Source: a virus. From it: a DNA stretch of 55,303 nucleotides. Below the pieces are notes generated by a model, which had not been told where the DNA came from, did no database searches, and saw only the letters and a program-made list of their open reading frames with translations. Positions 6,466 through 38,328 of this stretch are shown here, in pieces. The stretch lies in UHGV virus genome UHGV-0114783; one strand, 5' to 3'. Made by a program: the position numbers and the translations under genes. The first letter of the stretch is position 1. Each line of letters begins with the position of its first letter.

Positions 6466-6604
6466 GTGAGATCCTCATTTTTGGGTGTTAGAATCCCCGG
6501 ACCATTGATAGCGCCCATTGGGTTAACTTTGGTTTTAATGTTGTTTCCGGTGTAACTTTGGTCGGTACCACCGGACGTAGATCCCGCCTTGCGCGGGGTT
6601 TTCG

Positions 6605-6766: not shown

Positions 6767-6777
6767 AACTCACTCCG

Positions 6778-7593: not shown

Positions 7594-7618
7594 AATAAAA
7601 AACCCGGCAAGCCGGGTT
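7594..7618 (-). terminator. Rho-independent terminator downstream of the repressor gene
   Basis: GC stem AACCCGGC/GCCGGGTT followed by a T-run on the minus strand right after the repressor stop. Confidence 0.5.
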
Positions 7619-25380: not shown

Positions 25381-25389
25381 TCCAATGAC

Positions 25390-25409
25390 TGCATATCTGT
25401 ACCTTATGC
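25390..25409. repeat. Left flanking repeat TGCATatCTGTACCttATGC (candidate att site of nested element)
   Basis: Matches 38309..38328 at 16 of 20 positions with identical CTGTACC core. Confidence 0.4.
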
Positions 25410-25594
25410 AACTAATATCTATTAATCAGTGCGTTATCGTTCGGAATCATACGGCGTTACTGGCCTGAACCATAAAAATGACACTCCGAACATGTGCGGA
25501 TTTATTCGCCGGATTTCGCTTTGATTCGGTACATGAGGGACTAGAAAGAGAATCATGCGCCGTTTGCATTACATGGTAGCCAGAGAGGTGTTGA

Positions 25595-26824
25595 ATGATT
25601 GTTAGGCCACTAACTAGCGTCGAAGTGAAAAGCGCGAAGGCACAGGGCAAGGATTTCAGTTTGCACGATGGTTTCGGTTTGTTGCTTTACATCACAAGCC
25701 GGGGCGGTAAGTCATGGCGTTTTCGGTATGTACACCCGGTAACGAAGAAGAGACAAACCTATACCATTGGAAGATACCCGGAGTTTACTTTGTCCGAAGC
25801 GAGGGAGGAACGTTCGAAACTGCGCCGTATGGTAGCGCGGGGGATAGATCCGAACGAAGTCAAAAAAGATACCAGGAATGAACAGCGTAAAATGTACGCG
25901 CAGTCATTTCAGGCCGTTGCCGATGAATGGCTAAAAATCAAGATTAAAGAAGGTGCGAGAAGCAACACGCTTGAATCGCACAATGTGACGTTGAAGCATC
26001 TTTCCACGATTTTTAGGCATACCACAGTACATAAAATAAACGCAGCCGATACTATTCAGGCTTTTAAACCTTTCAGGGAAAGGCCATCAACGCTTACGAA
26101 AATGGTTATTACCATCAACGCCATAATGGATTATGCGGTAAATATTGGGGTTATTGAGCACAACCCACTATCGAAAATTGGTAAAGCATTCCCGGCTGAA
26201 AAAAACGAACCAAGAGCGACTTTACAGAAAGAGCGGTTGCCAGAATTTTTAAGCGCATGGAACGAGTTGAGCTTATGGGAGCCATCAAAGCTGGCATTAT
26301 TATTTCAGATCATTACGATGGTCCGACCTTCGGAAGCTGGCGGCGCTCTCTGGAATGAGATTGATTTTGATAATTCAATCTGGCAAATCCCTGCAAGCCG
26401 GATGAAAGGAAAGCGCCCCCACGTAGTCCCATTATCGAGCCAGGCTATAAACGTGCTTAAAGAGGCCGAAAAGTGGAAGCGCTGCGATTATGTTTTCCCC
26501 TCATGGCGAAAAGAAAATAAGCCGATCTCACGATGTGCGACTCAGGCCGGAATACACAAAACGTCGTTTAAAGGAATGATTGTTCCTCATGGGTTCAGGG
26601 CGTTGGCATCTACAGTTTTAAATGACGAGGGGTTCAACCCTGATGTGATTGAGGCTGCACTCGCTCACAAAAGCGCCGATGCGATTCGAAATGTTTATAA
26701 CCGTAGCGACTATCTGGAAAAACGCCGGGTTTTAATGCAATGGTGGGGGGACTTTATCGAGGCCGCAGAGCGTGGAGAGATACTGGAGACCAGCGGCGAT
26801 AAGGGCTTAAGGCTGGTTGTGTAG
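25595..26824 (+). CDS. int: Tyrosine integrase (P4-type) of the nested element
   Basis: 409-aa ORF, ATG with GAGAGG upstream; N-terminal KDFSLHDGFGLLLYITSRGGKSWRFRY and C-terminal HGFRALAST / AHK....R.VYNR motifs. Confidence 0.85.
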   Translation: MIVRPLTSVEVKSAKAQGKDFSLHDGFGLLLYITSRGGKSWRFRYVHPVTKKRQTYTIGRYPEFTLSEAREERSKLRRMVARGIDPNEVKKDTRNEQRKMYAQSFQAVADEWLKIKIKEGARSNTLESHNVTLKHLSTIFRHTTVHKINAADTIQAFKPFRERPSTLTKMVITINAIMDYAVNIGVIEHNPLSKIGKAFPAEKNEPRATLQKERLPEFLSAWNELSLWEPSKLALLFQIITMVRPSEAGGALWNEIDFDNSIWQIPASRMKGKRPHVVPLSSQAINVLKEAEKWKRCDYVFPSWRKENKPISRCATQAGIHKTSFKGMIVPHGFRALASTVLNDEGFNPDVIEAALAHKSADAIRNVYNRSDYLEKRRVLMQWWGDFIEAAERGEILETSGDKGLRLVV

Positions 26825-26966
26825 GGCATATCAATTTTTGGATAATTATGATTTCAAACGGGAATAGCTGGCTTTAAGCCAGCTTTTTTTATGCCCAAAG
26901 CTAACCGGAATGCGTTTTTTTTATTCAAATCATATATAATCATATCGAATATATACGGAGGTTTTT

Positions 26967-27179
26967 ATGTCTATAAGTGGCGGTGATATTCTGCTAAAAG
27001 GTGAAGTGAAAGCGCGTTTACGTTATCGCTCAGACTCGTCATTCTACGAGTTTCTAAAAGACGAGAAAAACGGCTTTCCAATGCCTTTTAAAGTCGGTGG
27101 GCGTAACTGCTGGTATGAAGATGAAGTAGATGCCTGGATAAGTAAACAAAGCGAGAAGCGCGGGATCTGCACATCATGA
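26967..27179 (+). CDS. AlpA-like small regulator/excisionase (putative)
   Basis: 70-aa ORF directly after the integrase gene. Confidence 0.55.
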   Translation: MSISGGDILLKGEVKARLRYRSDSSFYEFLKDEKNGFPMPFKVGGRNCWYEDEVDAWISKQSEKRGICTS

Positions 27180-27318
27180 ATGTTTGCAGATTTGGGAAAG
27201 AGGGCTTGCTAACGGCTATCCGGGCAAGCCCTTTTTATTGTCAGTGGTGGGGATCTGTAACTTACGGCCACCAGCGCCGGTAATCACCTTCTGGCTGGTG
27301 GCTTCACTGGCATGGCTA

Positions 27319-27678
27319 TTACGCTGCCGCATCATCTGAATTGAATTCAATGTGAATTCGGTCATAAGGCAGCACGATTTTTTCGCCGTCTTTGTCCAGA
27401 ACGCCGCCGTTAAGCAGTGACTGAACATCGTTATAAACACCGCGAAAATCACGGTTAACAATGCGTGATAGTTCGCGGATTGATACGGCTTGCGCTCCCT
27501 CCATCGCTTTGATGATCTGCCAGCGGTTAGGGGCAAGCATAGTTTTAGCCAGTTGTTCTACAGTGGGAAAAATCAGTTCGGAACCGATGAAATCCCCGTT
27601 CATTGCGCGGGAGGCGTCGGACATTGTCACCCGGAAAGCATCATCAACGGTCATTACTCTGACGGTCAGCACTCGCAT
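27319..27678 (-). CDS. HTH-containing protein of unknown function (second gene of a two-gene module)
   Basis: 119-aa ORF with HTH-like segment VSIRELSRIVNRDFRGVYNDVQSLL; 4-bp gap from the upstream gene. Confidence 0.45.
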   Translation of the reverse strand: MRVLTVRVMTVDDAFRVTMSDASRAMNGDFIGSELIFPTVEQLAKTMLAPNRWQIIKAMEGAQAVSIRELSRIVNRDFRGVYNDVQSLLNGGVLDKDGEKIVLPYDRIHIEFNSDDAAA

Positions 27679-27682
27679 GGTA

Positions 27683-27964
27683 TTACCTCCTCAACAGGTT
27701 TATGTCAGCCTGAAAGCTGGCGATCAGGTTCTCAATGGTGGTGAATGTCACCGGATATTCCCGATCATGGATGTGTTTGTGGTCGCCTTTGCCACGTTCG
27801 TTGTCGTAACGCATGACGCACTCGCCATCTACGATGTAGGCCAGACTGTACTTGTATTGGTGCTGGCTACCTAAAATTGCCGGGTCTACTTCCAGAATGC
27901 GGATCGAGGCGAAAGCGTTATCAGCTATCTGGATACGGCGGTTCATCAACTCAACAGCGGGCAT
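27683..27964 (-). CDS. Small protein of unknown function (first gene of a two-gene module)
   Basis: 93-aa ORF tightly coupled to the downstream HTH gene. Confidence 0.45.
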   Translation of the reverse strand: MPAVELMNRRIQIADNAFASIRILEVDPAILGSQHQYKYSLAYIVDGECVMRYDNERGKGDHKHIHDREYPVTFTTIENLIASFQADINLLRR

Positions 27965-28204
27965 TGGCTTATCTCCTTGTTGATGTAAATAATAACATCA
28001 CAAACGAATGATGTAAATGATTACATCATTGCGGGTAAGTTACCGATGGCATGAACGGTTCGCTGCTGGTGGCTCTCGATCTCCTGAAATCTCAGGAGAT
28101 TGCCGGGCATGATTTTAATCGGCGGACTTTTCCGCCGATTGAATACGGGCAGTTCGCTCCCTGCGTGTCGGTTTTGTTTGTGGATTATTCGCGTTTCGTT
28201 TCTG

Positions 28205-28310
28205 GTGAATTCGCATTCGCAATTTTTCCGAGAAGCCTTATCCGGCCTGCTTTGAGCAGTGTTCTCTCTTTGCGAATTCGCAATTCCATTCGCACTTTGA
28301 TTCGCAGTTT
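28205..28310. promoter_or_regulatory. Cluster of ATTCGCA heptamer repeats including the palindrome TGCGAATTCGCA
   Basis: Six or more copies of ATTCGCA within about 100 bp of non-coding-looking sequence. Confidence 0.4.
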
Positions 28311-28436
28311 TCAAATGTTCCCATTCCGGGGGCATGGACGATTCGACAGGTGTTACAAACGTTGGTGGTGAAATATCTTCTTGCGCTGGCGGGCAGGGTG
28401 TGGTTATGATTATTTCGCACCTCACAAAACGGGTGC

Positions 28437-28655
28437 CGGGTTTAGCAGCCTGAACGTTCTAGCGGGTAGCCGCTGATTTCCGTATAGCGGTATTTTTACG
28501 CCCGAAAACCAACCACACCCCCGATTTATGGCGGGGCGTGGTGGGGAGGCTTAACGCCTGCTGGTTTCCTAGAACGCCAGTCTGCTAACCCCGCCACGTC
28601 TCGCCACCCATGTTTAGCAGCATCTGGCGAGACTCCTTCAATATGTTCTAGGAGC
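28437..28655 (+). ncRNA. Candidate structured regulatory RNA region with mutually complementary repeats (P4 immunity-like arrangement)
   Basis: TTTAGCAGC...CGTTCTAG at 28441..28462 and again at 28613..28650, complementary block CTAGAACG...TCTGCTAA at 28569..28589, GC hairpin near 28512..28545. Confidence 0.35.
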
Positions 28656-28751
28656 CGCTAAAAATGGCTAGATCCGCACATCCAAAATTCACCTGGCGCT
28701 TTCTCGCGCTTAATCGCCACGACAAAAAAGCCAAACCTTGCCGTTTGTCCG

Positions 28752-29723
28752 TTGAGGCTGCGACCGAACGCGAAGCCCGCCGCATCCTTGCGCCGCACTT
28801 TATTTTGTCTCTGGCCGCACGTCTGCCAGTGCCGGAGGTGCGCCGTGTTTAACCTCCAGACTCTGACAGCCAAAGCCCGCGAGCTGCGCGGCAATGTCGT
28901 TAAAGCGGCGAGCACAAAGGGCAGTCGCACCATGACCCCTGTTTATGACCGCGACGAGCAGCGCAAGCTACGTGAGCGCATCCAGCAGACGCAACCGGAT
29001 TGGGTATTGCTCTGGTGGGATATTGCGACCGTAACCGGCTGGCGTACCAGCGATGTTTGCAACCTGCGCTATTCCTGCGTCAATTGGGAAACGGGGCAGG
29101 CGACAATTATCGTTGCCAAGCAAACCAAAGCCGCCGAAGCGCGGGCAACCCGCAAAGGTATTGAAATTGTGCGCCAGCAGCGCAAGGACGCCGCACGGCT
29201 CGCCGCTGACCATATCGCCTACATGAAGTGGGATAGTATCGGCTGTGATGAACTGGCCGCCGATATGAACGACGAAGAACAGGCGATTGTGTTCGGGCTG
29301 GTGGCAAAGGCTGACGTCAAGCACGACACCAAACAGTTACCGCCCGGCATCATCAAGCGGCTGCGTGACCGGCAGGATCGGAATCTGGTAGAGGACGACC
29401 TGGTATTTTCCCGCTCTCAAATCGAAAGTAACCGTTGTCAACGTCTGGAAGGTAGCGTGACCCGCCAAACCATCTGGCGCAAACTTCATGGCGTCATGGC
29501 GTGGTTTACCCGCTTCATTAACGCTAAATTGCGCCTGAGCGCCTATTCAAGCCGAAAAATAGCAGCCTTTAATCTTATGTCCGCAGGTGGCGAACAGGGC
29601 TTATTGGTGGCGTCTGAAATGCTGGGCCATAGCAACCCGGCGATAACTCGCACTTACCTTCAATTAGGCAGCAAAGCCGCCGCTATCCAGTCCCGTTTAG
29701 CAATGGAGGCCGGAAATGCGTAA
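28752..29723 (+). CDS. Divergent tyrosine-recombinase-like protein (start uncertain)
   Basis: ORF track 323 aa; C-terminal region with TGWRTSD ... LGHSNPAITRTYLQL resembling recombinase boxes; likely real start at an internal GTG/ATG (around 28846 to 28932). Confidence 0.45.
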   Translation: MRLRPNAKPAASLRRTLFCLWPHVCQCRRCAVFNLQTLTAKARELRGNVVKAASTKGSRTMTPVYDRDEQRKLRERIQQTQPDWVLLWWDIATVTGWRTSDVCNLRYSCVNWETGQATIIVAKQTKAAEARATRKGIEIVRQQRKDAARLAADHIAYMKWDSIGCDELAADMNDEEQAIVFGLVAKADVKHDTKQLPPGIIKRLRDRQDRNLVEDDLVFSRSQIESNRCQRLEGSVTRQTIWRKLHGVMAWFTRFINAKLRLSAYSSRKIAAFNLMSAGGEQGLLVASEMLGHSNPAITRTYLQLGSKAAAIQSRLAMEAGNA

Positions 29724-29895
29724 AACCTTCCAGATTGACGGATACGCTGTTAACAGGCGCGGGCATACGGTAGGGATTCACTACACCATGACCAGCACTA
29801 GCCCAGAAACAGCTAAATCTACTGCGCAACTACTGGCGCAGAAGGGCAGCTATAAACACGTTCGCATTACCCGCATTCGTGAGGTGGCAGCATGA
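29716..29895 (+). CDS. Small hypothetical protein (59 aa)
   Basis: Hand-translated ORF with GGAGG ahead of the ATG; overlaps neighbours by a few bases; not in ORF track. Confidence 0.4.
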   Translation: MRKTFQIDGYAVNRRGHTVGIHYTMTSTSPETAKSTAQLLAQKGSYKHVRITRIREVAA

Positions 29896-30155
29896 ACATA
29901 AATACCATCTACCGCCACCCGGCAGAGCTGGAAGCCGAAGCGATGCTATCTCGTAAAGAAGCATACCCGGATGATTTTACGCTGGCAGACCGAACAGCAG
30001 AACGCATGACCCGCGCCCGCAATGGGCTGGCTCACGTTATGACCGATTTAGCCACTCAACTAGACGATGAACAGGCCGCTATCGTGTATTGCTGGCTGAG
30101 TAAAGTCCTGACGATTATCGATATAGCCAGAATTGATGCGGAGGCCAGCGCATGA
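29892..30155 (+). CDS. Hypothetical protein
   Basis: 87-aa ORF, translationally coupled (ATGA overlap). Confidence 0.45.
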   Translation: MNINTIYRHPAELEAEAMLSRKEAYPDDFTLADRTAERMTRARNGLAHVMTDLATQLDDEQAAIVYCWLSKVLTIIDIARIDAEASA

Positions 30156-30373
30156 GCCAGTTACAACTGATTGATGCCACCTGTCAGATTGAACAGGCAC
30201 AGGCTGTTTTATCCATGTGGCTGGAGAGCACCACCAAAGACACTAGCCCCGACCTTCCGCGTCTTATCGGTTCAATCCTCACTTTGCTGCATGGCGTCCC
30301 GGAGGCAATGGAAGAAGCCGAAAGCAAGCTGGCTGACTATGTGATGCGTGAATATCGGGAGGGCAAGTCATGA
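30152..30373 (+). CDS. Hypothetical protein
   Basis: 73-aa ORF, coupled. Confidence 0.45.
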   Translation: MSQLQLIDATCQIEQAQAVLSMWLESTTKDTSPDLPRLIGSILTLLHGVPEAMEEAESKLADYVMREYREGKS

Positions 30374-30960
30374 GCTATCACGCAGAGGCAACGCCGCACG
30401 GCGTCAATATCATGACCAGCAATGATGCCGGGATATATGAGCATGTAGCCATTATAACCTATGAGAGCGCTGTAAGCCGTCTGGATGCGGGAGAGTACGA
30501 CGATACGCCAGATATCGGCTACGCCATTCATTTTGCCGTTGCTGATGGCGGGGCGCGTGGCTGGTTCGACTTTACTGCGCAGCATAACGTCACTATGTGG
30601 CGCTGGCTGATTGCTGCGACGTTCGTTTCTGAGATGAAGCGCGAAAACGGCACAACCTCCGTCACGGAGGCTGACGGCACAACATCGCAGGTGGCGATTT
30701 ACTCCAATGGTAATGCGGGCATGGTGATTTACCCGTTTGCTGAACGGCTGGCGATGGCGAACAACATCGAGGGCGCAATGATTGAGCGATACGGCGTCGA
30801 ACAGGGTACGGAAAACGCCATTGTGTTCTACCGCGCCATGCTGGACACGGAGCGCGGCGAGTTGACCCCGTTCGGGCGTCAGACGCTGGCAGAGCTACAC
30901 GATGGATTCATTGCCGATCTGAATGAAAACGGCTGGCCTGAAATGCCGCTGGCGCACTGA
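30370..30960 (+). CDS. Hypothetical protein
   Basis: 196-aa ORF immediately upstream of the primase gene. Confidence 0.45.
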   Translation: MSYHAEATPHGVNIMTSNDAGIYEHVAIITYESAVSRLDAGEYDDTPDIGYAIHFAVADGGARGWFDFTAQHNVTMWRWLIAATFVSEMKRENGTTSVTEADGTTSQVAIYSNGNAGMVIYPFAERLAMANNIEGAMIERYGVEQGTENAIVFYRAMLDTERGELTPFGRQTLAELHDGFIADLNENGWPEMPLAH

Positions 30961-30973
30961 GGGAGGTACACGA

Positions 30974-33754
30974 ATGCGTAATATCGACCTTATCCGCGAA
31001 GTGACCACCGCCGCAGCAGGGCGCTGGCCTTATGTGCTGGCTGGATTGTCTATCGACGTGCCTGATTCATCGCGCCGCCATGCCCCCTGCCCTGCATGTG
31101 GCGGTACGGATCGCTTCCGGTTCGATGATAACGGGCGCGGCAGCTTTATCTGCAACCAGTGCGGCGCGGGCGACGGGCTGGATTTAATCAAGCGGGTTAA
31201 CAACTGCGACACCACGGAGGCGGCGCACCTTGCCGCTGATGTGCTGGGTATTGATTACCGGGCAGCAGAAACCGACCCGACAGCAGCCAGCCAGAGGCGG
31301 GAGCAAATGGAGTCTGAGCGCCAGCAGCGCGAGCAGGAGCGCCAGAAACAGGCAGCAGAGGACGCAGAGCAGCGAAGGGCTACGTTTGCCAGCCTGTATG
31401 CCGGAATGCGCCAGAGCGTCACACGGGGCGAATCTGAATATCTGATGGCTAAGGGGCTGGACGGGTTCACTTTCCCGCTATTGCCTGATGGTTCAGTCCT
31501 GCTTGAGCTGGTGGATGAGTCCGGCGCAGTGGCAGCCGCACAGACCATCACCCCACAGGGAGAAAAGCGCCTTCTGACAGGTTCAGCAAAGCGCGGGGCA
31601 TATCACGCCGTAAACGCGCCAGAATCGCCGCAGAGCGTTTTAATTGCCGAGGGGCTGGCAACGGCGCTATCCGTTCACCAGATGCACCCCGAAGCGCTGG
31701 CGGTGGTCGCAGTGGACGCCGGAAACCTGCTTTCGGTCGCACAGCTTATGCGCCAAAAGCACCCTAACGCGCGGATCATCATTGCCGCAGACAATGACCA
31801 GAGCGCCGAAAGTGACAGAAGAGGAGGAGTGAAAATTAACACAGGTAAGGAGTGCGCGGAGAAAGCCGCAAAAGCCGTTGCTGGCTGGGCCTCGCTGCCA
31901 CCCGTGGACTACAAAGCGGACTGGAACGATTACCACCAACAATATGGACTGGAAGCCGCTACAGCAGCATTTAACGCCTCAATGTACCAACCGGAGGGTA
32001 AGAAAGTGGGTGTGACACTGGCAGCAATCGACGGCGGCAAGAAAAGCCCTGGTATCGACGACGACCTTAAACCGCGAGTAGAGAGCCGTTCGGATGGCAT
32101 TCACTGGATCACCCCGAAAGTGGACAAAGACACAGGGGAAATTATCAATACCGAGGCGTGGCTATGCTCTCCGCTGGAGATTGCTGGTGCAGGGAGTGAT
32201 AACGCCAGACAGCGCTTTCTGATCCTGCGTTGGGACGTTCCCGGCAATCGGGGGCAAGTTACCCGTGCGCTTCCTTGGGAGGACATTGGCGACCGCGAGG
32301 GATGGCGAACTCTGAAAAACGGCGGTGTCAGTGTGACGACCAAACCATCGTTGCGGGCAATTCTGGCCGACTGGCTACAGCGAACCGGTAGCGGCAAGGA
32401 GTGGCAGATCAGCCACACCACAGGCTGGCACAGCGGGGCGTACATCATGCCGGATGGTGATGTTATTGGTGATCCAGAGATACCGCTTTTATTCAGTGGC
32501 CGCAGTGCGGCGGCTGGTGGCTATACCGTCAGTGGAACGCCGGAAAGCTGGCGTGATTCGGTGGCGCGTCTTGCGTTGGGCAACCCGTCAATGATGCTGG
32601 GTGTTGCTGCTGCGCTGTCTGCACCGCTGATCGGGCTTGTTGGCGCTGACGGTTTCGGTGTTCACCTTTTCGAACAGTCCAGCGCAGGGAAGACGACGAC
32701 CGCCAACATTGCCAGCAGCTTATACGGTGAACCGGATGCCCTGCGCCTCACCTGGTACGGTACTGCGCTGGGTATCGCCAACGAAGCGGAAGCGCATAAC
32801 GACAGCCTGTTACCGCTGGACGAAGTGGGGCAGGGCAGTAGCGCCAAAGACGTTGCCACGTCGGCTTACACGCTGTTTAACGGTGCCGGAAAGTTACAGG
32901 GGGCGAAGGAGGGCGGCAACCGTGAGTTAAAGCGCTGGCGTACCGTGGCGATCAGTACCGGGGAAATGGACATTGAAACGTTTCTTTCTGCTGGTGGGCT
33001 GAAAGTTAAGGCCGGGCAACTGGTGCGACTGCTTAATTTACCGATGGAGAAATCAGTAACGCACCATGAGTACCAGAACGGGAAGCAACACGCCGACGCA
33101 CTCAAAGAGGCTTACCAGACGAACCACGGAGCCGCAGGCCGTGAATGGATTAAATGGCTTGCAGGCCACCAGCAGGAGGCAAAACAAGCTGTCAGAGCGG
33201 CGCAAGAGCGCTGGCGCAGTCTTATCCCCGCTGATTATGGCGAACAGGTTCATCGTGTAGGCGAGCGGTTCGCCATTCTGGAGGCGGCGCTGGTGCTTGG
33301 GATGCCTGTCACTGGCTGGGGGGAGCAGGAAAGCCGGGACGCCATCCAGCATGGCTTTAACGCCTGGGTGAAAGAGTTTGGCACGGGGAACCGTGAGCAT
33401 AAGCAGATCATCGAGCAGGCAGAGGCGTTTCTTAATGCATACGGACTGAGCCGATTTGCACCTTACCCTTATGACCCGGCTGACATGCCGATTCGGGATT
33501 TGGCCGGGTACCGTCAGAAAGGGGCGCATGATGCTGATCCGATAGTGTTCTACACGTTCCCGGCAGCATTCGAAGGTGAGATTGCGAAGGGATTCAACGC
33601 GAAACAGTTTGCCCGTGTGCTGGCCGGGGCTGGGGTGCTGAAACCGCCAGCCAGCGGAAGGGGGTATCAGCGTAAATCCCCGCGAATTGATGGACGCCAG
33701 ATAAACGTTTATGTGCTCCAGCTACGACCCGACGAGATAGAGGGTGAAGAATAA
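30974..33754 (+). CDS. Primase-helicase (P4 alpha-like: zinc ribbon, TOPRIM, Walker-A NTPase)
   Basis: ORF track 30923..33754 trimmed to the ATG at 30974; CPACGG...CNQCG zinc ribbon, TOPRIM-like IAEGLATA...IIIAADND, Walker A GADGFGVHLFEQSSAGKTT. Confidence 0.85.
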   Translation: MRNIDLIREVTTAAAGRWPYVLAGLSIDVPDSSRRHAPCPACGGTDRFRFDDNGRGSFICNQCGAGDGLDLIKRVNNCDTTEAAHLAADVLGIDYRAAETDPTAASQRREQMESERQQREQERQKQAAEDAEQRRATFASLYAGMRQSVTRGESEYLMAKGLDGFTFPLLPDGSVLLELVDESGAVAAAQTITPQGEKRLLTGSAKRGAYHAVNAPESPQSVLIAEGLATALSVHQMHPEALAVVAVDAGNLLSVAQLMRQKHPNARIIIAADNDQSAESDRRGGVKINTGKECAEKAAKAVAGWASLPPVDYKADWNDYHQQYGLEAATAAFNASMYQPEGKKVGVTLAAIDGGKKSPGIDDDLKPRVESRSDGIHWITPKVDKDTGEIINTEAWLCSPLEIAGAGSDNARQRFLILRWDVPGNRGQVTRALPWEDIGDREGWRTLKNGGVSVTTKPSLRAILADWLQRTGSGKEWQISHTTGWHSGAYIMPDGDVIGDPEIPLLFSGRSAAAGGYTVSGTPESWRDSVARLALGNPSMMLGVAAALSAPLIGLVGADGFGVHLFEQSSAGKTTTANIASSLYGEPDALRLTWYGTALGIANEAEAHNDSLLPLDEVGQGSSAKDVATSAYTLFNGAGKLQGAKEGGNRELKRWRTVAISTGEMDIETFLSAGGLKVKAGQLVRLLNLPMEKSVTHHEYQNGKQHADALKEAYQTNHGAAGREWIKWLAGHQQEAKQAVRAAQERWRSLIPADYGEQVHRVGERFAILEAALVLGMPVTGWGEQESRDAIQHGFNAWVKEFGTGNREHKQIIEQAEAFLNAYGLSRFAPYPYDPADMPIRDLAGYRQKGAHDADPIVFYTFPAAFEGEIAKGFNAKQFARVLAGAGVLKPPASGRGYQRKSPRIDGRQINVYVLQLRPDEIEGEE

Positions 33755-33778
33755 AAACACACATACGAGATGTTTTTT

Positions 33779-34073
33779 TGTTGGTTCAGTTGGTTCAGTA
33801 ACTATTTAATTAATATAAGTGTGTGTATTTAATGCATTTACATGCTTGTAAGTGAACCAACACCGAACCAACAAACGCCCATTTTGAACCAACAAATGCC
33901 GCTATTGAACCAACGCCCTTTTCTGGCTGGCCTGTAAATCTTTCCCACTGAACCAACACGAAAATAGCGTTTGTTGGTTCAAAACGGGGCTTTGTTGGTT
34001 CACTCCTAAAGAAATAATCCTTATAAAACAACAATCTTTACAAATTGAACCAACTGAACCAACTGAACCAACA
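33779..34073. repeat. Iteron array, about a dozen GAACCAAC/GTTGGTTC octamers in both orientations (candidate origin of the nested element)
   Basis: Direct reading: TTGGTTCAG x2, GAACCAAC x5, GTTGGTTC x2, then GAACCAACTGAACCAACTGAACCAAC, immediately downstream of the primase gene. Confidence 0.7.
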
Positions 34074-34355
34074 TGTTTTTGCTTATCTATAGAGTTTTTT
34101 CGGAGAGTAATTACTAATTTGGAGGGGCGTCGCCTAAGCGAAAGTATGCGGAAACGGCAACTTTGCGGAGCGGAAAAGAAAAAGCCCGCGCTGGAGAGGC
34201 GAGGGCTTTTGTTAACCATGTTTATGCAATCACACAACGGTGGATCACCGTCATAGTATCACGTCGATTTATCATTTCAATATGCGCAATGATATTTACT
34301 AACATTGCAATTTATGCAATGATCAGAATTTAAACAACGCAAAAGGTTATGAACA

Positions 34356-34919
34356 ATGAAACAGATAACCAATGTTAATCTGGAAAGTGATAACTCTGGT
34401 GGTACCGTCGAGGTGACTTACTCCGATGATACGTTCGAAAGGCTGACCTGCTCGCTTCCTGTGGCTCTCGTCATTGCGAATCTTGCAACGACGCTTAAGC
34501 AGGAACGTGCAACACGCATTGCAACTGGCGACCGCCTGCGTCGGATGTACACCCGCGATAGTGACATGATTACTCGCAGTGGCAGCGGCGCTTCTACGAC
34601 CTCCACCGCGCCAACGTCAATGGACGCTGAATTTATGCGCCTGGTACGCGCGGTAGCACCAAAGTATGACAACGCCCTTCCTGATACCGATCCTCGCCTT
34701 GTTGCGCTCGACGTGCTGCGTTACGCACCCGCTGAGGCATTCAGTGCGGTACATCCGACCCCGCTATCAGAGATTCAGCTTGATCAGGCTATCGACGTTC
34801 TGGAGCAGGTTGGCGACTACATGCGAGTTAACAACGTTTCACCGAAGATTCTCTCCACAGGCGACGCCATTCGCAGCATTAACACCGATAATGCCAGTTT
34901 CTGGCATCGCACGAAGTAA
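34356..34919 (+). CDS. Hypothetical protein
   Basis: 187-aa ORF after the iteron region. Confidence 0.45.
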   Translation: MKQITNVNLESDNSGGTVEVTYSDDTFERLTCSLPVALVIANLATTLKQERATRIATGDRLRRMYTRDSDMITRSGSGASTTSTAPTSMDAEFMRLVRAVAPKYDNALPDTDPRLVALDVLRYAPAEAFSAVHPTPLSEIQLDQAIDVLEQVGDYMRVNNVSPKILSTGDAIRSINTDNASFWHRTK

Positions 34920-34925
34920 GGAGCA

Positions 34926-35120
34926 ATGAGCATGGCTATTTATGACCCGAAATTAGCAGCAGGAAACCCGCAAAGCGCCGGGCGTAAACTCTTTGGCCGT
35001 GAGCATGCCGAGCAGTTACGTATGCGTAACAACTTCAACAACGAATGCCGCAATCTGGAAAAAGTCAACGAAGCGAATGCAAAGTTCTGGAGTGAACAGG
35101 ATGAAAAAGCCAAACGTTAA
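34926..35120 (+). CDS. Hypothetical protein
   Basis: 64-aa ORF. Confidence 0.35.
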   Translation: MSMAIYDPKLAAGNPQSAGRKLFGREHAEQLRMRNNFNNECRNLEKVNEANAKFWSEQDEKAKR

Positions 35121-35268
35121 ACCGGTATTACTTTCTGGCGACCAGTTCGCCGCAATCTGCAAGATCCAGGAGCGCGAACGCCAGCGCTCCGATATTGGCG
35201 TTGCGCCTTCTGTCCATCAAATTGCCCGTGGGCTGGTGGCGAAAGCGCTGGCATCAATTCAGGAATAA
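35101..35268 (+). CDS. Hypothetical protein (55 aa)
   Basis: ORF track 34993..35268 trimmed to the ATG at 35101. Confidence 0.3.
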   Translation: MKKPNVKPVLLSGDQFAAICKIQERERQRSDIGVAPSVHQIARGLVAKALASIQE

Positions 35269-35273
35269 CGACT

Positions 35274-36341
35274 ATGTCATATAACTGGATGCGCCATTTC
35301 GAGCTACAGCTCATCGATGAGAATGGCAAAGGAATTAGCCTTAGTGATTTCAAAGTTACCTTTGATATAGAGCGTAACGATAACAAATGGCCAGCTGTTG
35401 CGACGGTCAAGATCTACAACCTTTCACCAACTACTCAGAACCGTATTATGCAACGTGAGTTTGCCAAAATTGTGTTGATAGCGGGGTATGATGGTCGTGC
35501 GCAGGATGTAAGGGCAAGTGATGTGGGGATTGCACGTGAAATATCAGCAAGCGAAGTGGGCCAGGCTAACGGCGCAAACTACGGAGTCATTTTCAGCGGT
35601 GATATCCGCTTCACTGTGACCGGAAAAGATAACCCTGTCGATTCATGGGTACAGGTGCAGGCTTGTGACTCTGTGGAGGCGTTTACCAGCGCATTTATCA
35701 ACACCACTATCAGCAAAGGCTACACCACAGAAGATATTTATGTTGAGCTTATGAAAAGGCTGGAACCTTACGGCATTTCTCGCGGTATTGTTCCTGAATT
35801 CCCGGCAACGGTATTTCCTCGCGGTCGAGCCCTCTTTGGCTATGTCCATAACTATCTCGATGAAGTGGCCGCGCAGTGCAAAGCCACTTGGCAATTCAAC
35901 TATGGAAAAGTCGATATTGTTCCCAGAGACAAGGCCACTCATGAAGCTGTGGTTCTCAACGCTAATACCGGGCTTATCGGTATGCCTCAGCAGACCATCG
36001 GTGCGGGTGTGAATGTCAAATGCCTGATTAACTCACGGATTCACCTGAACGGGCTTATCCAACTGGATCAGGCTTCGGTATATCGTAGCGCCTTATCTGC
36101 GGATCAAATTGCCCAAGCTGGTGGGCCAATTTCGGTGGAAAGCCAAAACGGAAACCTTGTCACTACTGGATTAACGCAGAGTCCGGCGAGCATTGCTACC
36201 GATGGTATCTATAAGGTTCGGTATATCAGTTACACGGGCGACACGCGCGGTCAAGCGTGGTATATGGATCTGGCGTGTGAGGCTCGCGGGAATTCTGATT
36301 TATTTTCAAGTTCATTTATGAATAAGCAGAGTGAAGAATGA
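35274..36341 (+). CDS. Baseplate hub-like protein, diverged second copy
   Basis: 355-aa ORF colinear with 47449..48513 (shared WMRHFELQL, RFTVTGKDN, AVVLNANTGLIGMPQQT, YTGDTRGQAWYMDL blocks). Confidence 0.65.
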   Translation: MSYNWMRHFELQLIDENGKGISLSDFKVTFDIERNDNKWPAVATVKIYNLSPTTQNRIMQREFAKIVLIAGYDGRAQDVRASDVGIAREISASEVGQANGANYGVIFSGDIRFTVTGKDNPVDSWVQVQACDSVEAFTSAFINTTISKGYTTEDIYVELMKRLEPYGISRGIVPEFPATVFPRGRALFGYVHNYLDEVAAQCKATWQFNYGKVDIVPRDKATHEAVVLNANTGLIGMPQQTIGAGVNVKCLINSRIHLNGLIQLDQASVYRSALSADQIAQAGGPISVESQNGNLVTTGLTQSPASIATDGIYKVRYISYTGDTRGQAWYMDLACEARGNSDLFSSSFMNKQSEE

Positions 36342-36682
36342 AGAAGATTATTTTACTGATTGGTTTATTGGGCGCATCTGGAAGTCATGCTGCGCAGGTT
36401 ATTACCATGCAGTGCGGAAACTTTCGCTTTGAGATGATAGAAAACTCGATGGCGAGAATTAATGGTGAGTATGTAACATCTCAGAAAATTACAGAGTTCG
36501 GACAGAACGGGGCAAAAGTAGAAATGACGCTTATGCCTGCCAGCGATGGGAATCTGTATGGGTTTGAATACATCCATCCTGACGGTAGCAAAAAGCGCTG
36601 GCTGAATGTTGAGCTTATCCGCACCAATATGAATCAGGCGCGGATCATTGGCTCGTTTGATTGTAAGCGCGTGAAGGGGTAA
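36338..36682 (+). CDS. Small secreted protein with conserved QCG.F and DCK...KG motifs (second copy)
   Basis: 114-aa ORF with signal-peptide-like N-terminus, same position between hub and spike genes as the phage copy. Confidence 0.5.
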   Translation: MKKIILLIGLLGASGSHAAQVITMQCGNFRFEMIENSMARINGEYVTSQKITEFGQNGAKVEMTLMPASDGNLYGFEYIHPDGSKKRWLNVELIRTNMNQARIIGSFDCKRVKG

Positions 36683-36690
36683 GGGGAATC

Positions 36691-37353
36691 ATGCCATTCA
36701 TTCGACCCGCAAATGAGCAGGATGTAACACAGCTTGTTCAGGACAATGCTAAAGCATCTGTAACCAATGCGTTACCTGGCATTATTCGTTCGTTCGATCC
36801 CGAAACTGTCACCTGCGATGTTGATATAGCCATTACGGCAAGAATGACGAAGGCTGGCACAATGGGTGAAGATTTCCAGTATGAGTCCGTCCGCTATCCG
36901 ATTCTTAACGATTTGCCTGTGGTTTTTCCGCGCGGGGGCGGAGTTACGCTTACTTTCCCGGTTAAAGATGGTGATGAATGCCTCATCGTATTCTCTTCGC
37001 GTTCGATTGATTTCTGGTGGCAGAACGGCGGTGTGCAGGAGCGAGCTGATGGGCGTATTTTAGATCTGTCTGATGCGTTCGTTATTCCTGGCCCCCAATC
37101 ACAGGTAAAGAAGATATCCAATATCAGTACCAACGCTGCGCAGCTGCGTACAGATGATGGAGCGGCATTTGTAGAGGTGTCCGCTGGTGGAGCCATTACT
37201 ATTACCAGCTCTCAAATCACCCTTAACGGGCCCGTGCAGGTAAACGGAACGATCACTTCCACTGGCGACCAAACGGCCAACGGTATCAGCCAGATTAACC
37301 ATACCCACGGCGGCGTACAATCAGGCGGCAGCAACACAGGAAAACCACAATGA
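36691..37353 (+). CDS. Baseplate central spike protein (gpV-like), diverged second copy
   Basis: 220-aa ORF colinear with 49246..49986 (shared FPRGGG.TLTFPVK.GDECL, DLSDAF, TDDGAAFVEV, HGGVQ.GG..TG.PQ end). Confidence 0.65.
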   Translation: MPFIRPANEQDVTQLVQDNAKASVTNALPGIIRSFDPETVTCDVDIAITARMTKAGTMGEDFQYESVRYPILNDLPVVFPRGGGVTLTFPVKDGDECLIVFSSRSIDFWWQNGGVQERADGRILDLSDAFVIPGPQSQVKKISNISTNAAQLRTDDGAAFVEVSAGGAITITSSQITLNGPVQVNGTITSTGDQTANGISQINHTHGGVQSGGSNTGKPQ

Positions 37354-37529
37354 GCAATATTGAAAAACTGAAACCAGAAGAAAGCGGAGCCAGCCAGAAT
37401 GGAAAGGTTCGTACCTGGCTGGATGATATCAACGGGCAGCCGGAACCAGATGGTATTGGCAGCTTCGGTGAGAGTGCGATCTGCGAAGAATCACGCACAG
37501 CGGAAACCATGCGAAATAACGTAGGGTGA
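37350..37529 (+). CDS. Small hypothetical protein (59 aa)
   Basis: Hand-translated ORF starting at the ATGA overlap with the preceding gene; not in ORF track. Confidence 0.3.
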   Translation: MSNIEKLKPEESGASQNGKVRTWLDDINGQPEPDGIGSFGESAICEESRTAETMRNNVG

Positions 37530-37619
37530 CGGTCAGATGACGTGATCTGTAACTTTAAGTAGCGGTGCAGGGGCAGAACTCAGCACGCTACTTTTATTTT
37601 CTTTGTCAAAAGGTGAACA

Positions 37620-38093
37620 ATGGCGGCATTACCAACAATGGCTAAGGTTATGATTATTCAATCATTAGCTTGCTACGAACCCCCTTCCAGAATCGTTGAG
37701 CTTGTAAAACAAGATTTTGGCATCGTCGTTACCCGGCAGCAGATATCGGCCTACAACCCTGAAAATACAATGGCAAAAAATCTTAGCCAAAAATGGGTAG
37801 AACTCTTTAATCACACTCGCGCCCGCTTCCAGAGTGAAATATCCGAGATCCCTATCGCTAACAAAGCGTACCGGCTGCGTATGCTCGATCGCATGGCTAA
37901 CCGTGCAGAGGCAATCAAGAATTACGCATTAACAGCGCAGCTTATTGAACAGGCCGCGAAAGAGTGCGGGGACGCTTACACCAACAAATTAAAGGTTGAA
38001 ACAACGGGTAAAGATGGTGGTCCGATCAGAACGGAAACAACGAACTTAACCGCCGAAGAAGCCGGGGAGGCATACCGCAAATTTATGGGATAA
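37620..38093 (+). CDS. Orphan terminase small subunit homolog (no adjacent TerL)
   Basis: 157-aa ORF colinear with the phage TerS at 19944..20417, roughly two-thirds identical by eye, nearly identical C-terminal third. Confidence 0.65.
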   Translation: MAALPTMAKVMIIQSLACYEPPSRIVELVKQDFGIVVTRQQISAYNPENTMAKNLSQKWVELFNHTRARFQSEISEIPIANKAYRLRMLDRMANRAEAIKNYALTAQLIEQAAKECGDAYTNKLKVETTGKDGGPIRTETTNLTAEEAGEAYRKFMG

Positions 38094-38308
38094 CCACCAG
38101 CGCCGTGACACGTCACACGCAAAAATAGCACCGCCCATTAATGGGCTGGTGGCACAGCTTGCATATTGAAATTCCCTGTAAATCTTACAGATCTGGTATT
38201 GAGTAACTTACCCCATTCAGCGCCACACATCACAGAGCAGCCTATGGACTACACACAAAATCAGGCTGAAAATAAATCCTTATATTTCAGTTGATTAAAT
38301 AATAGCCT

Positions 38309-38328
38309 TGCATTCCTGTACCGGATGC
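38309..38328. repeat. Right flanking repeat TGCATtcCTGTACCggATGC (candidate att site of nested element)
   Basis: Matches 25390..25409; the ATG within it is the start codon of the next head gene. Confidence 0.4.

What the first reader, a model, noticed from the sequence alone, without database searches (positions are those of the whole stretch)
25390..38328. Satellite-like integrative element nested inside the prophage head-gene cluster
Phage head genes run TerS, TerL, portal, head morphogenesis and scaffold-like protein up to 25380, and resume with a structural gene at 38325 and the major capsid gene at 38819. The 12.9 kb in between carries a second P4-type integrase, an AlpA-like gene, a zinc-ribbon/TOPRIM/Walker-A primase-helicase, an iteron array, and diverged copies of phage baseplate and TerS genes. 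Imperfect direct repeats TGCATnnCTGTACCnnATGC flank it; the ATG inside the right repeat is the start codon of the next head gene, so precise excision would restore a short scaffold-to-capsid intergenic spacer. This suggests an element that integrated into its own potential helper phage, separating the capsid genes from their upstream late operon.
Basis: partly seen in the sequence, partly recalled or inferred. Interest (0 to 1): 0.9.

Follow-up and report, generated by a model that had tools for sequence, protein, structure and literature searches.

The report
Phage satellite embedded in its helper prophage
A 12.9-kb phage satellite sits precisely inside a head gene of the E. coli prophage it most likely exploits. 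This arrangement was first described in 2023, but here it uses an unrelated integrase lineage, a new target gene and a different helper type.

Summary
A 12,919-bp element (window 25404-38322) is flanked by TGCATnnCTGTACCnnATGC repeats with an exact 7-bp core. It interrupts the late operon of a Q-dependent lambdoid prophage with a contractile tail.

Uninterrupted junctions occur in 336 of 5,426 complete E. coli genomes and in 75 of 80 related viral contigs. In-silico excision matches them at 399 of 400 bases. One correction: the site lies inside codons 3-7 of the head cement gene, so integration removes its ribosome-binding site and first 7 codons.

The element has a satellite (PICI-like) layout:
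- Integrase and AlpA.
- A C4-type immunity RNA.
- A primase-helicase and 12 iterons.
- A late zone with diverged copies of helper genes under purifying selection: baseplate hub (62% identity), spike (51%) and putative TerS (65%).

This "helper-embedded PICI" arrangement was published by Tommasini et al. in 2023. This element falls outside that study. Its integrase scores 69 bits (21% identity) against their founder, below their 400-bit cutoff. Their arm motif is absent, and neither the site nor the helper type is on their list.

Integrases 46-63% identical to this one lie next to or inside other late genes, which suggests a second late-gene-targeting clade. Excision and packaging are inferred, not shown.

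The parts
25390..25409 (.). attL (TGCATATCTGTACCTTATGC); 7-bp crossover core CTGTACC at 25397-25403
   Evidence: The left half equals attB of empty-site phages. The right half equals the P' arm found at the attP junction in L006 and L181.
25375..25403 (+). Orphaned ribosome-binding site (AGGA), start codon (ATG 25385-25387) and first codons (MTAYLY) of the helper cement gene. These now open a 27-codon dead-end ORF.
   Evidence: In empty-site genomes the cement gene is 167 aa and starts here.
25595..26824 (+). Satellite tyrosine integrase with P4-like architecture (Arm-DNA-bind_3, Phage_int_M, Phage_integrase)
   Evidence: It is 21% identical (69 bits) to the 11capE HE-PICI integrase, 30% to the P4 integrase and 39% to an ssrA-site integrase.
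26866..26891 (+). Intrinsic-terminator-like hairpin plus T-run directly after the integrase gene
   Evidence: 8-bp stem with 5 G-C pairs, followed by TTTTTTT.
26967..27179 (+). AlpA-like small DNA-binding protein (putative excisionase/activator)
   Evidence: Phage_AlpA at E=4e-4, 20.5 bits, just under the 21-bit cutoff. It is annotated 'AlpA family' in EC2001 and ET791.
27319..27964 (-). TumE toxin (27683-27964) and HVO_A0114-type partner (27319-27678): an accessory toxin-antitoxin pair in the variable zone
   Evidence: The pair is present in some relatives and absent in others.
28417..28611 (+). P4/P1-type RNA immunity region: isrK-like element (28417-28497) and C4 antisense RNA (28524-28611)
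   Evidence: C4 scores 76.1 bits against a gathering cutoff of 45. The isrK-like match scores 44.6 bits, below its cutoff of 50.
28664..28852 (+). Icd-like small protein
   Evidence: phrog_1743, transcriptional repressor. PGAP names it 'Icd-like' in relatives.
28845..29723 (+). Second tyrosine-recombinase-like gene without an arm-binding domain (about 292 aa)
   Evidence: It is 91-98% conserved across satellites that differ in main integrase and primase.
29716..30960 (+). Four small co-oriented ORFs of the replication zone, of unknown function (phrog_1515, phrog_20558)
30923..33754 (+). Primase-helicase (Zn_Ribbon_Prim, Toprim_3, DUF927)
33780..34072 (.). Putative replication origin: 12 iterons GAACCAAC in both orientations
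   Evidence: The window holds 14 copies in all against 1.6 expected; none of 100 shuffles reached 14.
34356..35268 (+). Three conserved ORFs of unknown function at the start of the late zone (187 aa, 64 aa, about 53 aa)
   Evidence: No family match was found. They are 93-99% conserved among elements at this site.
35274..36341 (+). Satellite copy of the baseplate hub
   Evidence: phrog_196, baseplate hub. It is 62% identical to the helper hub at 47449-48513. dN/dS is about 0.07 against another satellite copy.
36338..36682 (+). Secreted small beta-barrel protein (signal peptide, conserved Cys26/Cys109)
36691..37353 (+). Satellite copy of the central membrane-puncturing spike (N-terminal domain, beta-helix, apex motif)
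   Evidence: It is 51% identical to the helper spike at 49246-49986. dN/dS is about 0.10.
37620..38093 (+). Satellite DUF2280 protein, putative small terminase
   Evidence: It is 65% identical to helper DUF2280 (19944-20417), which overlaps the TerL start. Identity is 51% in the N-terminal 70 aa and 76% in the C-terminal 87 aa. The function is inferred.
38309..38328 (.). attR (TGCATTCCTGTACCGGATGC); core CTGTACC at 38316-38322
38325..38807 (+). Helper head cement gene, N-terminally truncated (160 aa instead of 167) and without a recognisable Shine-Dalgarno sequence
   Evidence: Phage_cement and XM1_gp53 profiles match from positions 8-9 onward.

Best explanation
**What it is.** The 12,919-bp block is a PICI-type phage satellite. 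A site-specific tyrosine integrase has inserted it into codons 3-7 of the head cement gene of a lambdoid, contractile-tailed E. coli prophage. That prophage is most likely its helper.

**Shown by the sequence**
- Exact att structure, with abundant empty sites in related prophages.
- Satellite gene layout: integrase and AlpA, C4-type RNA immunity, primase-helicase with iteron origin, and a late zone.
- Co-orientation with the helper late operon.
- Late genes homologous to helper genes and evolving under purifying selection.

**Inferred life cycle**
1. In the lysogen the element is silent. It separates the cement, capsid and tail genes from the upstream late promoter by 12.9 kb. It also strips the cement gene of its ribosome-binding site and first 7 codons.
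2. After SOS induction the helper CI repressor is cleaved.
3. The helper Q antiterminator then drives late transcription through TerS, TerL, portal and DUF2213 into the co-oriented satellite integrase and AlpA genes. This transcription reads through the terminator that follows the integrase gene.
4. Integrase plus AlpA excise the satellite at the CTGTACC core and restore the helper gene.
5. The circle replicates from its iteron origin with its own primase-helicase.
6. The satellite TerS homologue has a diverged N-terminal (DNA-recognition) half and a conserved C-terminal (TerL-binding) half. It recruits helper TerL to satellite DNA.
7. Satellite DNA is packaged by headful as roughly three-unit concatemers into helper capsids.
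8. The satellite hub, secreted protein and spike are built into, or act on, helper tails.
9. Re-integration needs a helper prophage or a co-infecting helper, because the only known attB lies in the helper.
For: **Precise insertion**
- The window matches E. coli genomes in two pieces with exactly 12,919 bp missing.
- The in-silico junction is 399/400 identical to TOK-001.
- The empty junction occurs in 336 of 5,426 genomes, and attL in 4.
- In IMG/VR, 75 of 80 helper loci are empty and 4 are occupied.

**Core and site specificity**
- The 7-bp core is identical in attL, attR and attB and is flanked by the inverted GCAT/ATGC motif.
- The same site is occupied by elements with 98-100% identical integrases but different cargo in ABWA45, EC2001, ET791, ECONIH5, four IMG/VR contigs and 9 of 10 further assemblies.

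**Circular or tandem form**
- attP-type junctions occur in IMGVR_UViG_3300045988_113726, from the same metagenome as the window, and in OGVK01015064.1.

**Satellite anatomy**
- Gene families.
- The helper encodes a CI repressor with an S24 peptidase domain and a Q antiterminator.
- A terminator follows the integrase gene.

**Late genes**
- Identities to helper copies are 65% (TerS), 62% (hub), 51% (spike) and 31% (secreted protein).
- dN/dS is 0.07-0.10 among satellite copies, and synonymous sites are saturated against the helper copies.
- In ABWA45 the helper has a PBSX-type TerL and its embedded element lacks DUF2280.

**Relatives and precedent**
- A chromosomal relative sits at tRNA-Thr in strain G5.
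- An HE-PICI in E. coli NRG857c was shown to excise after composite replication (PMC10111431).
Against: - No experiment shows excision, replication or packaging of this element.
- The attP junction in contig 113726 lies 39 nt from the contig end. It could equally come from a tandem pair or an assembly artefact.
- L181 shares only about 150 bp around the core.
- DUF2280 is 'unknown function' in Pfam and PHROGs. The structure model is poor (pLDDT 63), and its best matches to small terminases are not significant (E about 0.5).
- AlpA scores just under Pfam's cutoff.
- No capsid-size-redirecting gene was recognised.
- The role of the hub, secreted protein and spike is unknown.
- Most elements at this site lack the hub and spike.
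- Whether this helper prophage is inducible is unknown.
- The Met8 start could still give some cement protein while the element is integrated.
Confidence: 0.8

Rival explanations
1. The element is an integrative island that only uses the phage gene as a landing site. It travels passively as cargo of the phage genome, or not at all, and does not hijack packaging or virion parts.
For: There is no experimental evidence of separate packaging. The TerS function of DUF2280 is unproven. The cargo includes a toxin-antitoxin pair typical of islands.
Against: - The composite is about 55 kb, against 38-46 kb for empty relatives. A headful phage would therefore not package a complete composite.
- The element has its own primase-helicase and iteron origin.
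- Its late genes are homologues of the helper's packaging and tail-tip genes and are under purifying selection.
- Presence of DUF2280 tracks the helper's terminase type in ABWA45.
Confidence: 0.08
2. The element is a decayed satellite trapped in a defective prophage. It is a genomic fossil that no longer excises.
For: Tommasini et al. note that many HE-PICI helpers look truncated. One relative (L223) has a rearranged right flank. ECONIH5's element carries an IS5 insertion.
Against: - All main ORFs are intact, and attL and attR cores are perfect.
- The integrase is 98-100% conserved in at least 13 independent genomes or contigs with varying cargo.
- attP-type junctions exist.
- The helper in the window retains the integrase, CI, O, Q, lysis, head and tail genes.
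Confidence: 0.08
3. This is an off-target (secondary-site) integration of a normally chromosomal PICI.
For: HE-PICI integrases are known to produce off-target events. Relatives with other integrases sit at tRNA genes.
Against: Every locus found with this integrase (98-100% identity) is at this same site. That covers 4 of 4 E. coli genomes and 4 of 4 IMG/VR contigs, and 9 of 10 TerS-linked places. No chromosomal site was seen for it.
Confidence: 0.02
4. The block is a fixed accessory module of this phage lineage, or a metagenome assembly chimera.
For: The window is a metagenome-derived viral contig.
Against: The same configuration occurs in four finished E. coli chromosomes. The great majority of relatives have the uninterrupted junction.
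Confidence: 0.01

Closest known systems
Helper-embedded PICIs (HE-PICIs), founder Eco567.11capE in E. coli NRG857c (Tommasini, Mageeney & Williams 2023, PMC10111431)
   Same: - A PICI-type satellite integrated inside a late gene of its putative helper prophage and co-oriented with the late operon.
- The same four zones: integration, variable/immunity, replication and late.
- attP carries no replacement for the interrupted gene.
- The late zone holds captured helper late genes.
- C4/isrK-type RNA immunity.
   Different: - The integrase is unrelated at the clade level: 21% identity and 69 bits, against their 400-bit inclusion cutoff.
- Their doubled TGTATTGC arm motif is absent.
- The att sequences are absent from their complete att files. 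The relatives' accession numbers and the names of the helper's protein families were not found in their supplements either, although their island table is held only in part.
[quoted passage not shown] Here the helper has an XM1/E217-type head and a contractile tail.
- The site is at the extreme 5' end of the gene, so only 7 codons and the ribosome-binding site are lost.
- The element carries its own TerS homologue and tail-tip genes; 11capE has no terS and is presumed to use cos packaging.
Gram-negative PICIs such as EcCICFT073 (as summarised in PMC10111431)
   Same: Integrase, AlpA, primase and an adjacent iteron origin. Size about 10-15 kb. Packaging-redirection genes sit at the right end.
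   Different: - It is integrated in the helper rather than in a chromosomal gene.
- Redirection is by a full-length TerS homologue rather than an Rpp-type TerS-binding protein (my knowledge of Rpp, not tested here).
- It carries baseplate hub and spike genes.
Satellite P4
   Same: P4-family integrase architecture (30% identity). C4/CI-type RNA immunity. AlpA-like gene. Primase-helicase with nearby iterons.
   Different: - No Sid, Psu or Delta homologues were found in Pfam or PHROG scans of the late zone.
- The helper is not P2-like.
- The primase-helicase has a DUF927 domain; the P4 alpha protein was not compared here.
- The site is in a phage gene rather than a tRNA gene.
SaPI-type packaging redirection by a satellite-encoded small terminase (my knowledge, not tested here)
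   Same: The satellite carries a TerS homologue of the helper's. One half is conserved (76%) and the other diverged (51%). This is the pattern expected for a switch in pac recognition while keeping TerL binding.
   Different: The protein family is different (DUF2280), and the function has not been shown for this family.

Membership tests
HE-PICI configuration (Tommasini et al. 2023) | [quoted passage not shown] | tested here: met
   The element lies within codons 3-7 of the cement gene. The empty site occurs in 336 E. coli genomes.
HE-PICI configuration (Tommasini et al. 2023) | Key satellite genes (integrase, AlpA, primase) co-oriented with the interrupted late operon | tested here: met
   All are on the + strand, as are the helper late genes.
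HE-PICI configuration (Tommasini et al. 2023) | Four ordered zones: integration (integrase + AlpA), Bro/immunity, replication, late | tested here: met
   No Bro-N domain was found here. The variable zone holds TumE/TumA, C4 RNA, an Icd-like gene and a second recombinase.
HE-PICI configuration (Tommasini et al. 2023) | attP carries no replacement sequence for the disrupted late gene | tested here: met
   No in-frame start or Shine-Dalgarno sequence is supplied. The gene is left with Met8 as its first possible start.
HE-PICI integrase clade (Tommasini et al. 2023) | Integrase within the 11capE clade (found at >=400 bits by TBLASTN with the 11capE integrase) | tested here: not met
   The score is 69 bits at 21% identity. 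In a neighbour-joining tree, 11capE groups with the lambdoid helper integrase, while this integrase groups with P4- and ssrA-type integrases.
HE-PICI integrase clade (Tommasini et al. 2023) | Doubled TGTATTGC motif about 81 bp upstream and about 132 bp downstream of the attP centre | tested here: not met
   There are 3 copies in the window, none in the att arms, and the count is at chance level. One search found no comparable doubled motif.
HE-PICI configuration (Tommasini et al. 2023) | Excision of the satellite after helper induction and composite replication | not testable with these tools
   Only indirect evidence exists: attP-type junctions in two metagenome contigs.
PICI (Gram-negative type) | About 10-15 kb; integrase, AlpA and a replication module with adjacent origin; no lysis genes and no complete structural set | tested here: met
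   The element is 12.9 kb with no capsid, portal, TerL or lysis genes.
PICI (Gram-negative type) | Induced and packaged by a helper phage | not testable with these tools
   Inferred from the TerS, hub and spike homology to the surrounding prophage.
P4-like satellites | Psu, Sid and Delta capsid-size and transactivation genes | tested here: not met
   Pfam and PHROG scans of the late-zone ORFs gave no such hits.
cf-PICI (capsid-forming PICI) | Own major capsid, portal, protease and head-tail connector genes | tested here: not met
   None were found in the element.
Small terminase (TerS) | Demonstrated DNA recognition and TerL activation, or significant similarity to a solved TerS | tested here: inconclusive
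   - DUF2280 and phrog_546 have no assigned function.
- There was no significant PDB sequence match; the only hit had E = 0.42.
- The AlphaFold model has pLDDT 63. Its topology is an HTH-like N-terminus, long helices, then beta strands.
- The top Foldseek hits are G20c and P74-26 small terminases, at E about 0.5.
- The helper copy overlaps the TerL start by 4 nt.

The most novel reading that the evidence does not exclude
[quoted passage not shown] Integrases 46-63% identical to this one, all at or below 90 bits against 11capE, were found at these positions:
- splitting the major capsid gene (Klebsiella);
- behind a spike and a sheath-initiator gene (Enterobacter);
- behind a truncated gpA-type TerL gene (Salmonella);
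- behind lambda-like head-tail genes (E. coli);
- behind a Terminase_2 TerS gene.

**Part 2.** The hub, secreted beta-barrel protein and spike cassette gives satellite virions a tail tip that the helper lysogen's own secreted protein cannot block. Under this reading the secreted protein acts as a spackle-like superinfection-exclusion factor. The satellite could then enter the only cells that contain its attachment site.
Probability: 0.12. Interest if true: 0.8.

Novelty: new variant of a known kind. Interest (0 to 1): 0.55.

Why it matters
Helper-embedded satellites were described once, as the product of a single integrase clade in lambda-type prophages. This locus shows the same lifestyle with an integrase lineage closer to P4- and ssrA-type integrases. 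It uses a new target (the 5' end of a head cement gene) and a contractile-tailed helper.

Sampling relatives of this integrase turned up several more late-gene positions. Embedding in the helper may therefore have arisen more than once, and may be far more common than the one published survey could detect.

The locus also offers finished E. coli strains for experiments: EC2001, ET791, ECONIH5 and ABWA45. In these strains:
- Satellite excision should be needed to restore a helper head gene.
- A satellite TerS homologue, and in EC2001 a hub/spike set, can be deleted and tested (ET791 and ECONIH5 carry the TerS homologue only; ABWA45 carries neither).

For prophage annotation, it warns that 'second integrases' inside late operons mark nested elements.

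Tried and rejected
- **Phage collection.** Searching the phage collection with the insert gave no match.
- **HE-PICI motif and supplements.** The published TGTATTGC motif is absent from the arms. The att sequences, accessions and family names were not found in the 2023 paper's supplements. Their island table was cut when stored, but the attL and attR files are complete.
- **Species-representative genomes.** A scan with an integrase alignment found only relatives at or below 40% identity. The two nearest that I checked (39-40% identical) sit beside a tmRNA gene and a tRNA-Leu gene; the rest (about 28-34% over the full length), mostly Pseudomonas and Acinetobacter, were not examined. The close clade is therefore missing from that collection.
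- **Metagenome attP hits.** One hit (L180) is a chance 19-mer in an unrelated GC-rich contig.
- **Contig 113726.** I could not retrieve the rest of it, because the stored data end at position 9820. Circle, tandem and assembly artefact therefore cannot be told apart.
- **Arm-type sites.** Only a weak candidate emerged, GGATTTAT/CNGATTT in pairs at about -61/-48 and +97/+108. I do not rely on it.
- **Shared pac or cos site.** Beyond the homologous coding regions, the satellite and helper share no DNA, so no common site was seen.
- **Defence systems.** PADLOC gave no hit for the accessory genes.
- **TerS structure.** The prediction was of low confidence.
- **L071.** The right end of the related element in L071 could not be mapped.

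Full report
**1. What is in the sequence**

The window is a viral contig, IMGVR_UViG_3300045988_080056. It holds a lambdoid E. coli-type prophage with these genes:
- Integrase: 185-1435.
- RecT/RecE.
- CI repressor with S24 peptidase domain: 7618-8310, minus strand.
- Replication protein O.
- Q antiterminator: 15330-16112.
- Lysis genes.
- DUF2280: 19944-20417.
- TerL: 20414-22042.
- DUF1073 portal.
- Minor head protein.
- DUF2213 protease/scaffold: 24148-25380.
- After the insert: cement protein (38325-38807), major capsid protein (38819-39760), sheath, tube, an SLT-domain tape-measure-like protein, baseplate and fibres.

They were confirmed by Pfam, PHROGs and Rfam. The iteron GAACCAAC occurs 12 times in 33780-34072, against 1.6 expected in the whole window.

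**2. It is a discrete insertion with a precise attachment site**

- Megablast of 20000-44000 against 5,426 complete E. coli genomes found many prophages matching in two pieces. Their span in the record is 11,082 bp, which is the query minus 12,919 bp.
- The uninterrupted site in strain TOK-001 reads …GGATAATCCA ATG ACT GCA TAT CTG TAC CGG ATG CCT…, the start of a 167-aa 'structural cement protein Gp24'.
- In the window, attL is TGCATATCTGTACC|TTATGC (25390-25409) and attR is TGCATTCCTGTACC|GGATGC (38309-38328). The exact 7-bp core CTGTACC is bracketed by GCAT/ATGC inverted repeats. This is the expected look of a tyrosine-recombinase core site.
- Joining the flanks in silico gives 399/400 identity to TOK-001. 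An exact 60-mer match is found in 56 of 80 related IMG/VR loci.
- A 140-bp empty-site probe is present in 336 E. coli genomes. The attL probe is present in 4: ABWA45, EC2001, ET791 and ECONIH5.
- Among 80 IMG/VR helper loci, 75 are empty, 4 are occupied and 1 is cut.

One correction is needed. The cement gene's real start codon is at 25385, left of the insert. The ATG in the right repeat is Met8. Integration therefore removes the ribosome-binding site and 7 codons, and no Shine-Dalgarno sequence precedes Met8.

**3. It is a satellite of PICI type**

The order of genes matches the four zones described for Gram-negative PICIs:
- **Integration:** integrase followed by a terminator-like hairpin, then an AlpA-like gene.
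- **Variable zone:** a TumE toxin pair, an isrK-like RNA and C4 antisense RNA (76 bits, gathering cutoff 45), an Icd-like gene and a second, arm-less tyrosine recombinase.
- **Replication:** small ORFs, a zinc-ribbon/Toprim/DUF927 primase-helicase and iterons.
- **Late zone**.

All main genes run in the direction of the helper late operon.

The late zone is a syntenic, diverged copy of helper genes:

| Gene | Identity to helper copy |
|---|---|
| Baseplate hub | 62% |
| Secreted protein | 31% |
| Central spike | 51% |
| DUF2280 | 65% |

Between satellite copies from different genomes, dN/dS is 0.07-0.10. Synonymous sites are saturated against the helper copies. These are therefore old, selected genes, not recent debris.

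The DUF2280 pair is 51% identical over residues 1-70 and 76% over residues 71-157. This pattern is expected if DNA recognition has changed while TerL contact is kept.

The TerS label itself is only an inference. It rests on position (the helper copy overlaps the TerL start), on predicted topology and on non-significant best fold matches to the G20c and P74-26 small terminases.

**4. Relatives**

- Elements with 98-100% identical integrases occupy the same site in four finished E. coli chromosomes and four IMG/VR contigs. Nine of ten further assemblies found through the satellite DUF2280 cluster also have an element at this site.
- Their cargo varies. Most carry a 197-aa protein and an M41-like protein. 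EC2001 and L229 carry five inner-baseplate genes. ECONIH5 has an IS5 insertion.
- ABWA45's helper has a PBSX-type TerL in place of the DUF2280/TerL pair, and its embedded element lacks DUF2280. This fits a terminase-matching role.
- E. coli G5 and several IMG/VR contigs carry relatives with the same second recombinase, a related primase, and hub, spike and TerS genes. These have 31-34% identical integrases, at tRNA-Thr in G5 and L022 and at tRNA-Arg in L039. The family therefore also lives outside prophages.

**5. Evidence for a free or tandem form**

The in-silico attP junction (GCATTCCTGTACCTTATGCAAC) occurs in IMGVR_UViG_3300045988_113726, from the same metagenome as the window. There a satellite right end (DUF2280 plus the P arm) runs through the core into the satellite left end, 39 nt before the contig stops.

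It also occurs in the 1,050-bp contig OGVK01015064.1. These fit excised circles or concatemers, but tandem insertion or assembly effects cannot be excluded. A third hit was chance.

**6. Comparison with what is known**

Tommasini, Mageeney and Williams (2023, PMC10111431) described 'helper-embedded PICIs'. They reported 491 elements at 14 sites in cognates of nine lambda late genes. All were found with the 11capE integrase at 400 bits or more.

They showed by qPCR and sequencing that 11capE excises after the composite has excised and replicated. They proposed passive replication and late-transcript read-through.

The present locus has that configuration but lies outside their set:
- The integrase is 21% identical (69 bits) to 11capE's, and closer to P4 (30%) and to an ssrA-site integrase (39%).
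- Their doubled TGTATTGC arm motif is absent.
- The att sequences, the accession numbers of the relatives and the names of the helper's protein families do not occur in their supplementary files.
- The site names I recovered from their supplements are all lambda-type gene families: Terminase_1, Phage_portal_2, CLP_protease, Phage_cap_E, Phage_tail_L, DUF4035 and Phage_TTP_13. The helper here has an XM1/E217-type head and a contractile tail.

**7. A probable second late-gene-targeting clade**

Integrases 46-63% identical to this one were sampled for context:

| Integrase | Identity | Host | Position |
|---|---|---|---|
| P0199 | 63% | Enterobacter | Directly after spike and sheath-initiator genes |
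| L024, P0203, L217-219 | 56% | Klebsiella (L217-219); Raoultella (P0203 by name); L024 host not determined | Splits the PF09950 major capsid gene at a GAAGTGGAA core; both halves seen |
| L071 | 53% | Host not determined | Between portal and DUF2213-like/capsid-like genes |
| P0227 | 51% | Salmonella | After a 333-aa truncated gpA-type TerL |
| P0235 | 51% | E. coli, 143 contigs | After capsid E, FI, FII and two further late genes |
| P0239 | 47% | E. coli | After a Terminase_2 gene in one place; next to chromosomal genes in another |

All score 90 bits or less against 11capE and group together in a rough neighbour-joining tree. In that tree 11capE falls with the lambdoid helper integrase.

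For most of these only the left flank was seen, and the tree is crude. I therefore treat 'second clade with late-gene tropism' as likely but not established.

**8. Mechanism**

- **Shown:** precise insertion, satellite anatomy, co-orientation, helper-homologous late genes under selection.
- **Inferred, following the published HE-PICI model and general lambdoid biology:** Q-modified transcription from the helper late promoter reads into the integrase and AlpA genes, past the terminator after the integrase gene. Excision restores the cement gene. The satellite replicates from its own origin. Its TerS homologue directs helper TerL to satellite DNA.
- **Packaging arithmetic:** empty relatives are 38-46 kb and the composite is about 55 kb. 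A headful phage could not carry the full composite. A 12.9-kb satellite would fit about three times per head. No capsid-size gene was recognised.

The role of the hub, secreted protein and spike is open. The secreted protein has a signal peptide, two conserved cysteines and a confident small beta-barrel model (pLDDT 88). Its structural neighbours are unspecific.

One speculative reading is this. The helper's copy acts as a periplasmic superinfection-exclusion factor against incoming tail tips, and the satellite's own set lets its particles enter helper lysogens. Those are the only cells with its attachment site.

**9. Verdict**

The kind of element is already known, so this is not categorically new. 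It is a new variant: another integrase lineage, a new target gene, a new helper type and tail-tip cargo.

Interest is moderate (0.55). A specialist would not be very surprised, since the 2023 authors expected more cases. The apparent convergence, the scale of the second clade and the tail-tip cassette are still worth following up.

Noticed in passing
Loci L096, L099, L108, L110, L113, L116, L117, L119, L169 (empty sites); corresponds to window 25397-25403: Ten of 75 empty helper sites carry a change in the first or second base of the 7-bp crossover core: TTGTACC (synonymous Leu) in nine and TCGTACC in one. Six others have a different cement N-terminus (MNNVFLYRMP) but keep CTGTACC. Core mismatches could protect helpers from integration.
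   Followed up: partly
L006 / L017 (IMGVR_UViG_3300045988_113726): A 27.9-kb contig from the same metagenome as the window ends 39 nt after an attP-type junction of a related element. That element has TerS but no hub or spike. The rest of the contig could not be retrieved, so circle, tandem and assembly artefact remain open.
   Followed up: partly
L181 (OGVK01015064.1, 645-663): This 1,050-bp contig has the attP core plus about 65 and 85 bp of the arms. Beyond that, the flanking sequence is unrelated to the window's element. Either the attP module moves between elements or this is a very different variant.
   Followed up: no
window 28845-29723; L003, L004, L024, L071, L217-L219: A second, arm-less tyrosine recombinase just after the C4 RNA and Icd-like gene is 91-98% conserved. 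This holds across satellites whose main integrases (31-100% identity) and primases (DUF927 or D5_N/DUF5906) differ. Its role is unknown; dimer resolution or regulation are possibilities.
   Followed up: partly
L002 (E. coli ABWA45) 5945-8027 and 21210-23390: The ABWA45 helper has a PBSX-type TerL and a different upstream gene instead of the DUF2280/TerL pair. Its embedded element lacks DUF2280. L019 also lacks it. This is consistent with a match between satellite TerS and helper terminase.
   Followed up: partly
window 34180-34335: An AT-rich stretch with repeated ATGCAAT/TTGCAAT motifs lies between the iterons and the first late-zone ORF. A similar stretch occurs at the same place in L071. 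A weak OrzO-P RNA match (38.6 bits, cutoff 60) overlaps it on the minus strand.
   Followed up: no
L223 4700-4830: One element with the same TerS has a right flank that follows attB only as far as CTGTACCGGATG. It then continues into an inverted gp25-like gene and chromosomal genes (GntR, mannitol dehydrogenase). This is either a rearranged helper remnant or a secondary site.
   Followed up: partly
L183 (E. coli ECONIH5) 14828-15808: An IS5 copy is inserted in the late zone of the embedded element, just upstream of its DUF2280 gene.
   Followed up: no
L057 1-560 (IMGVR_UViG_2840331258_000002): An integrase 41% identical to this one (22% to 11capE) follows a truncated lambda-type capsid E gene. 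The gene is cut about 45 codons downstream of the published E:Phage_cap_E:80 site.
   Followed up: partly
L002 33959-34779 versus window 48868-49188: Between the secreted-protein gene and the spike gene, the ABWA45 helper carries a Phd/Doc toxin-antitoxin pair. The window's helper has a 106-aa ORF of unknown function (phrog_13007) at that position. This looks like a small variable slot inside the baseplate cluster.
   Followed up: no
window 36338-36682; proteins P0001-P0076: The secreted beta-barrel protein family (phrog_3443) is widespread in Enterobacterales, including Klebsiella, Salmonella, Serratia, Pantoea, Pectobacterium and Yersinia. The 90%-identical Klebsiella copy lies in satellites embedded in the major capsid gene.
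   Followed up: partly
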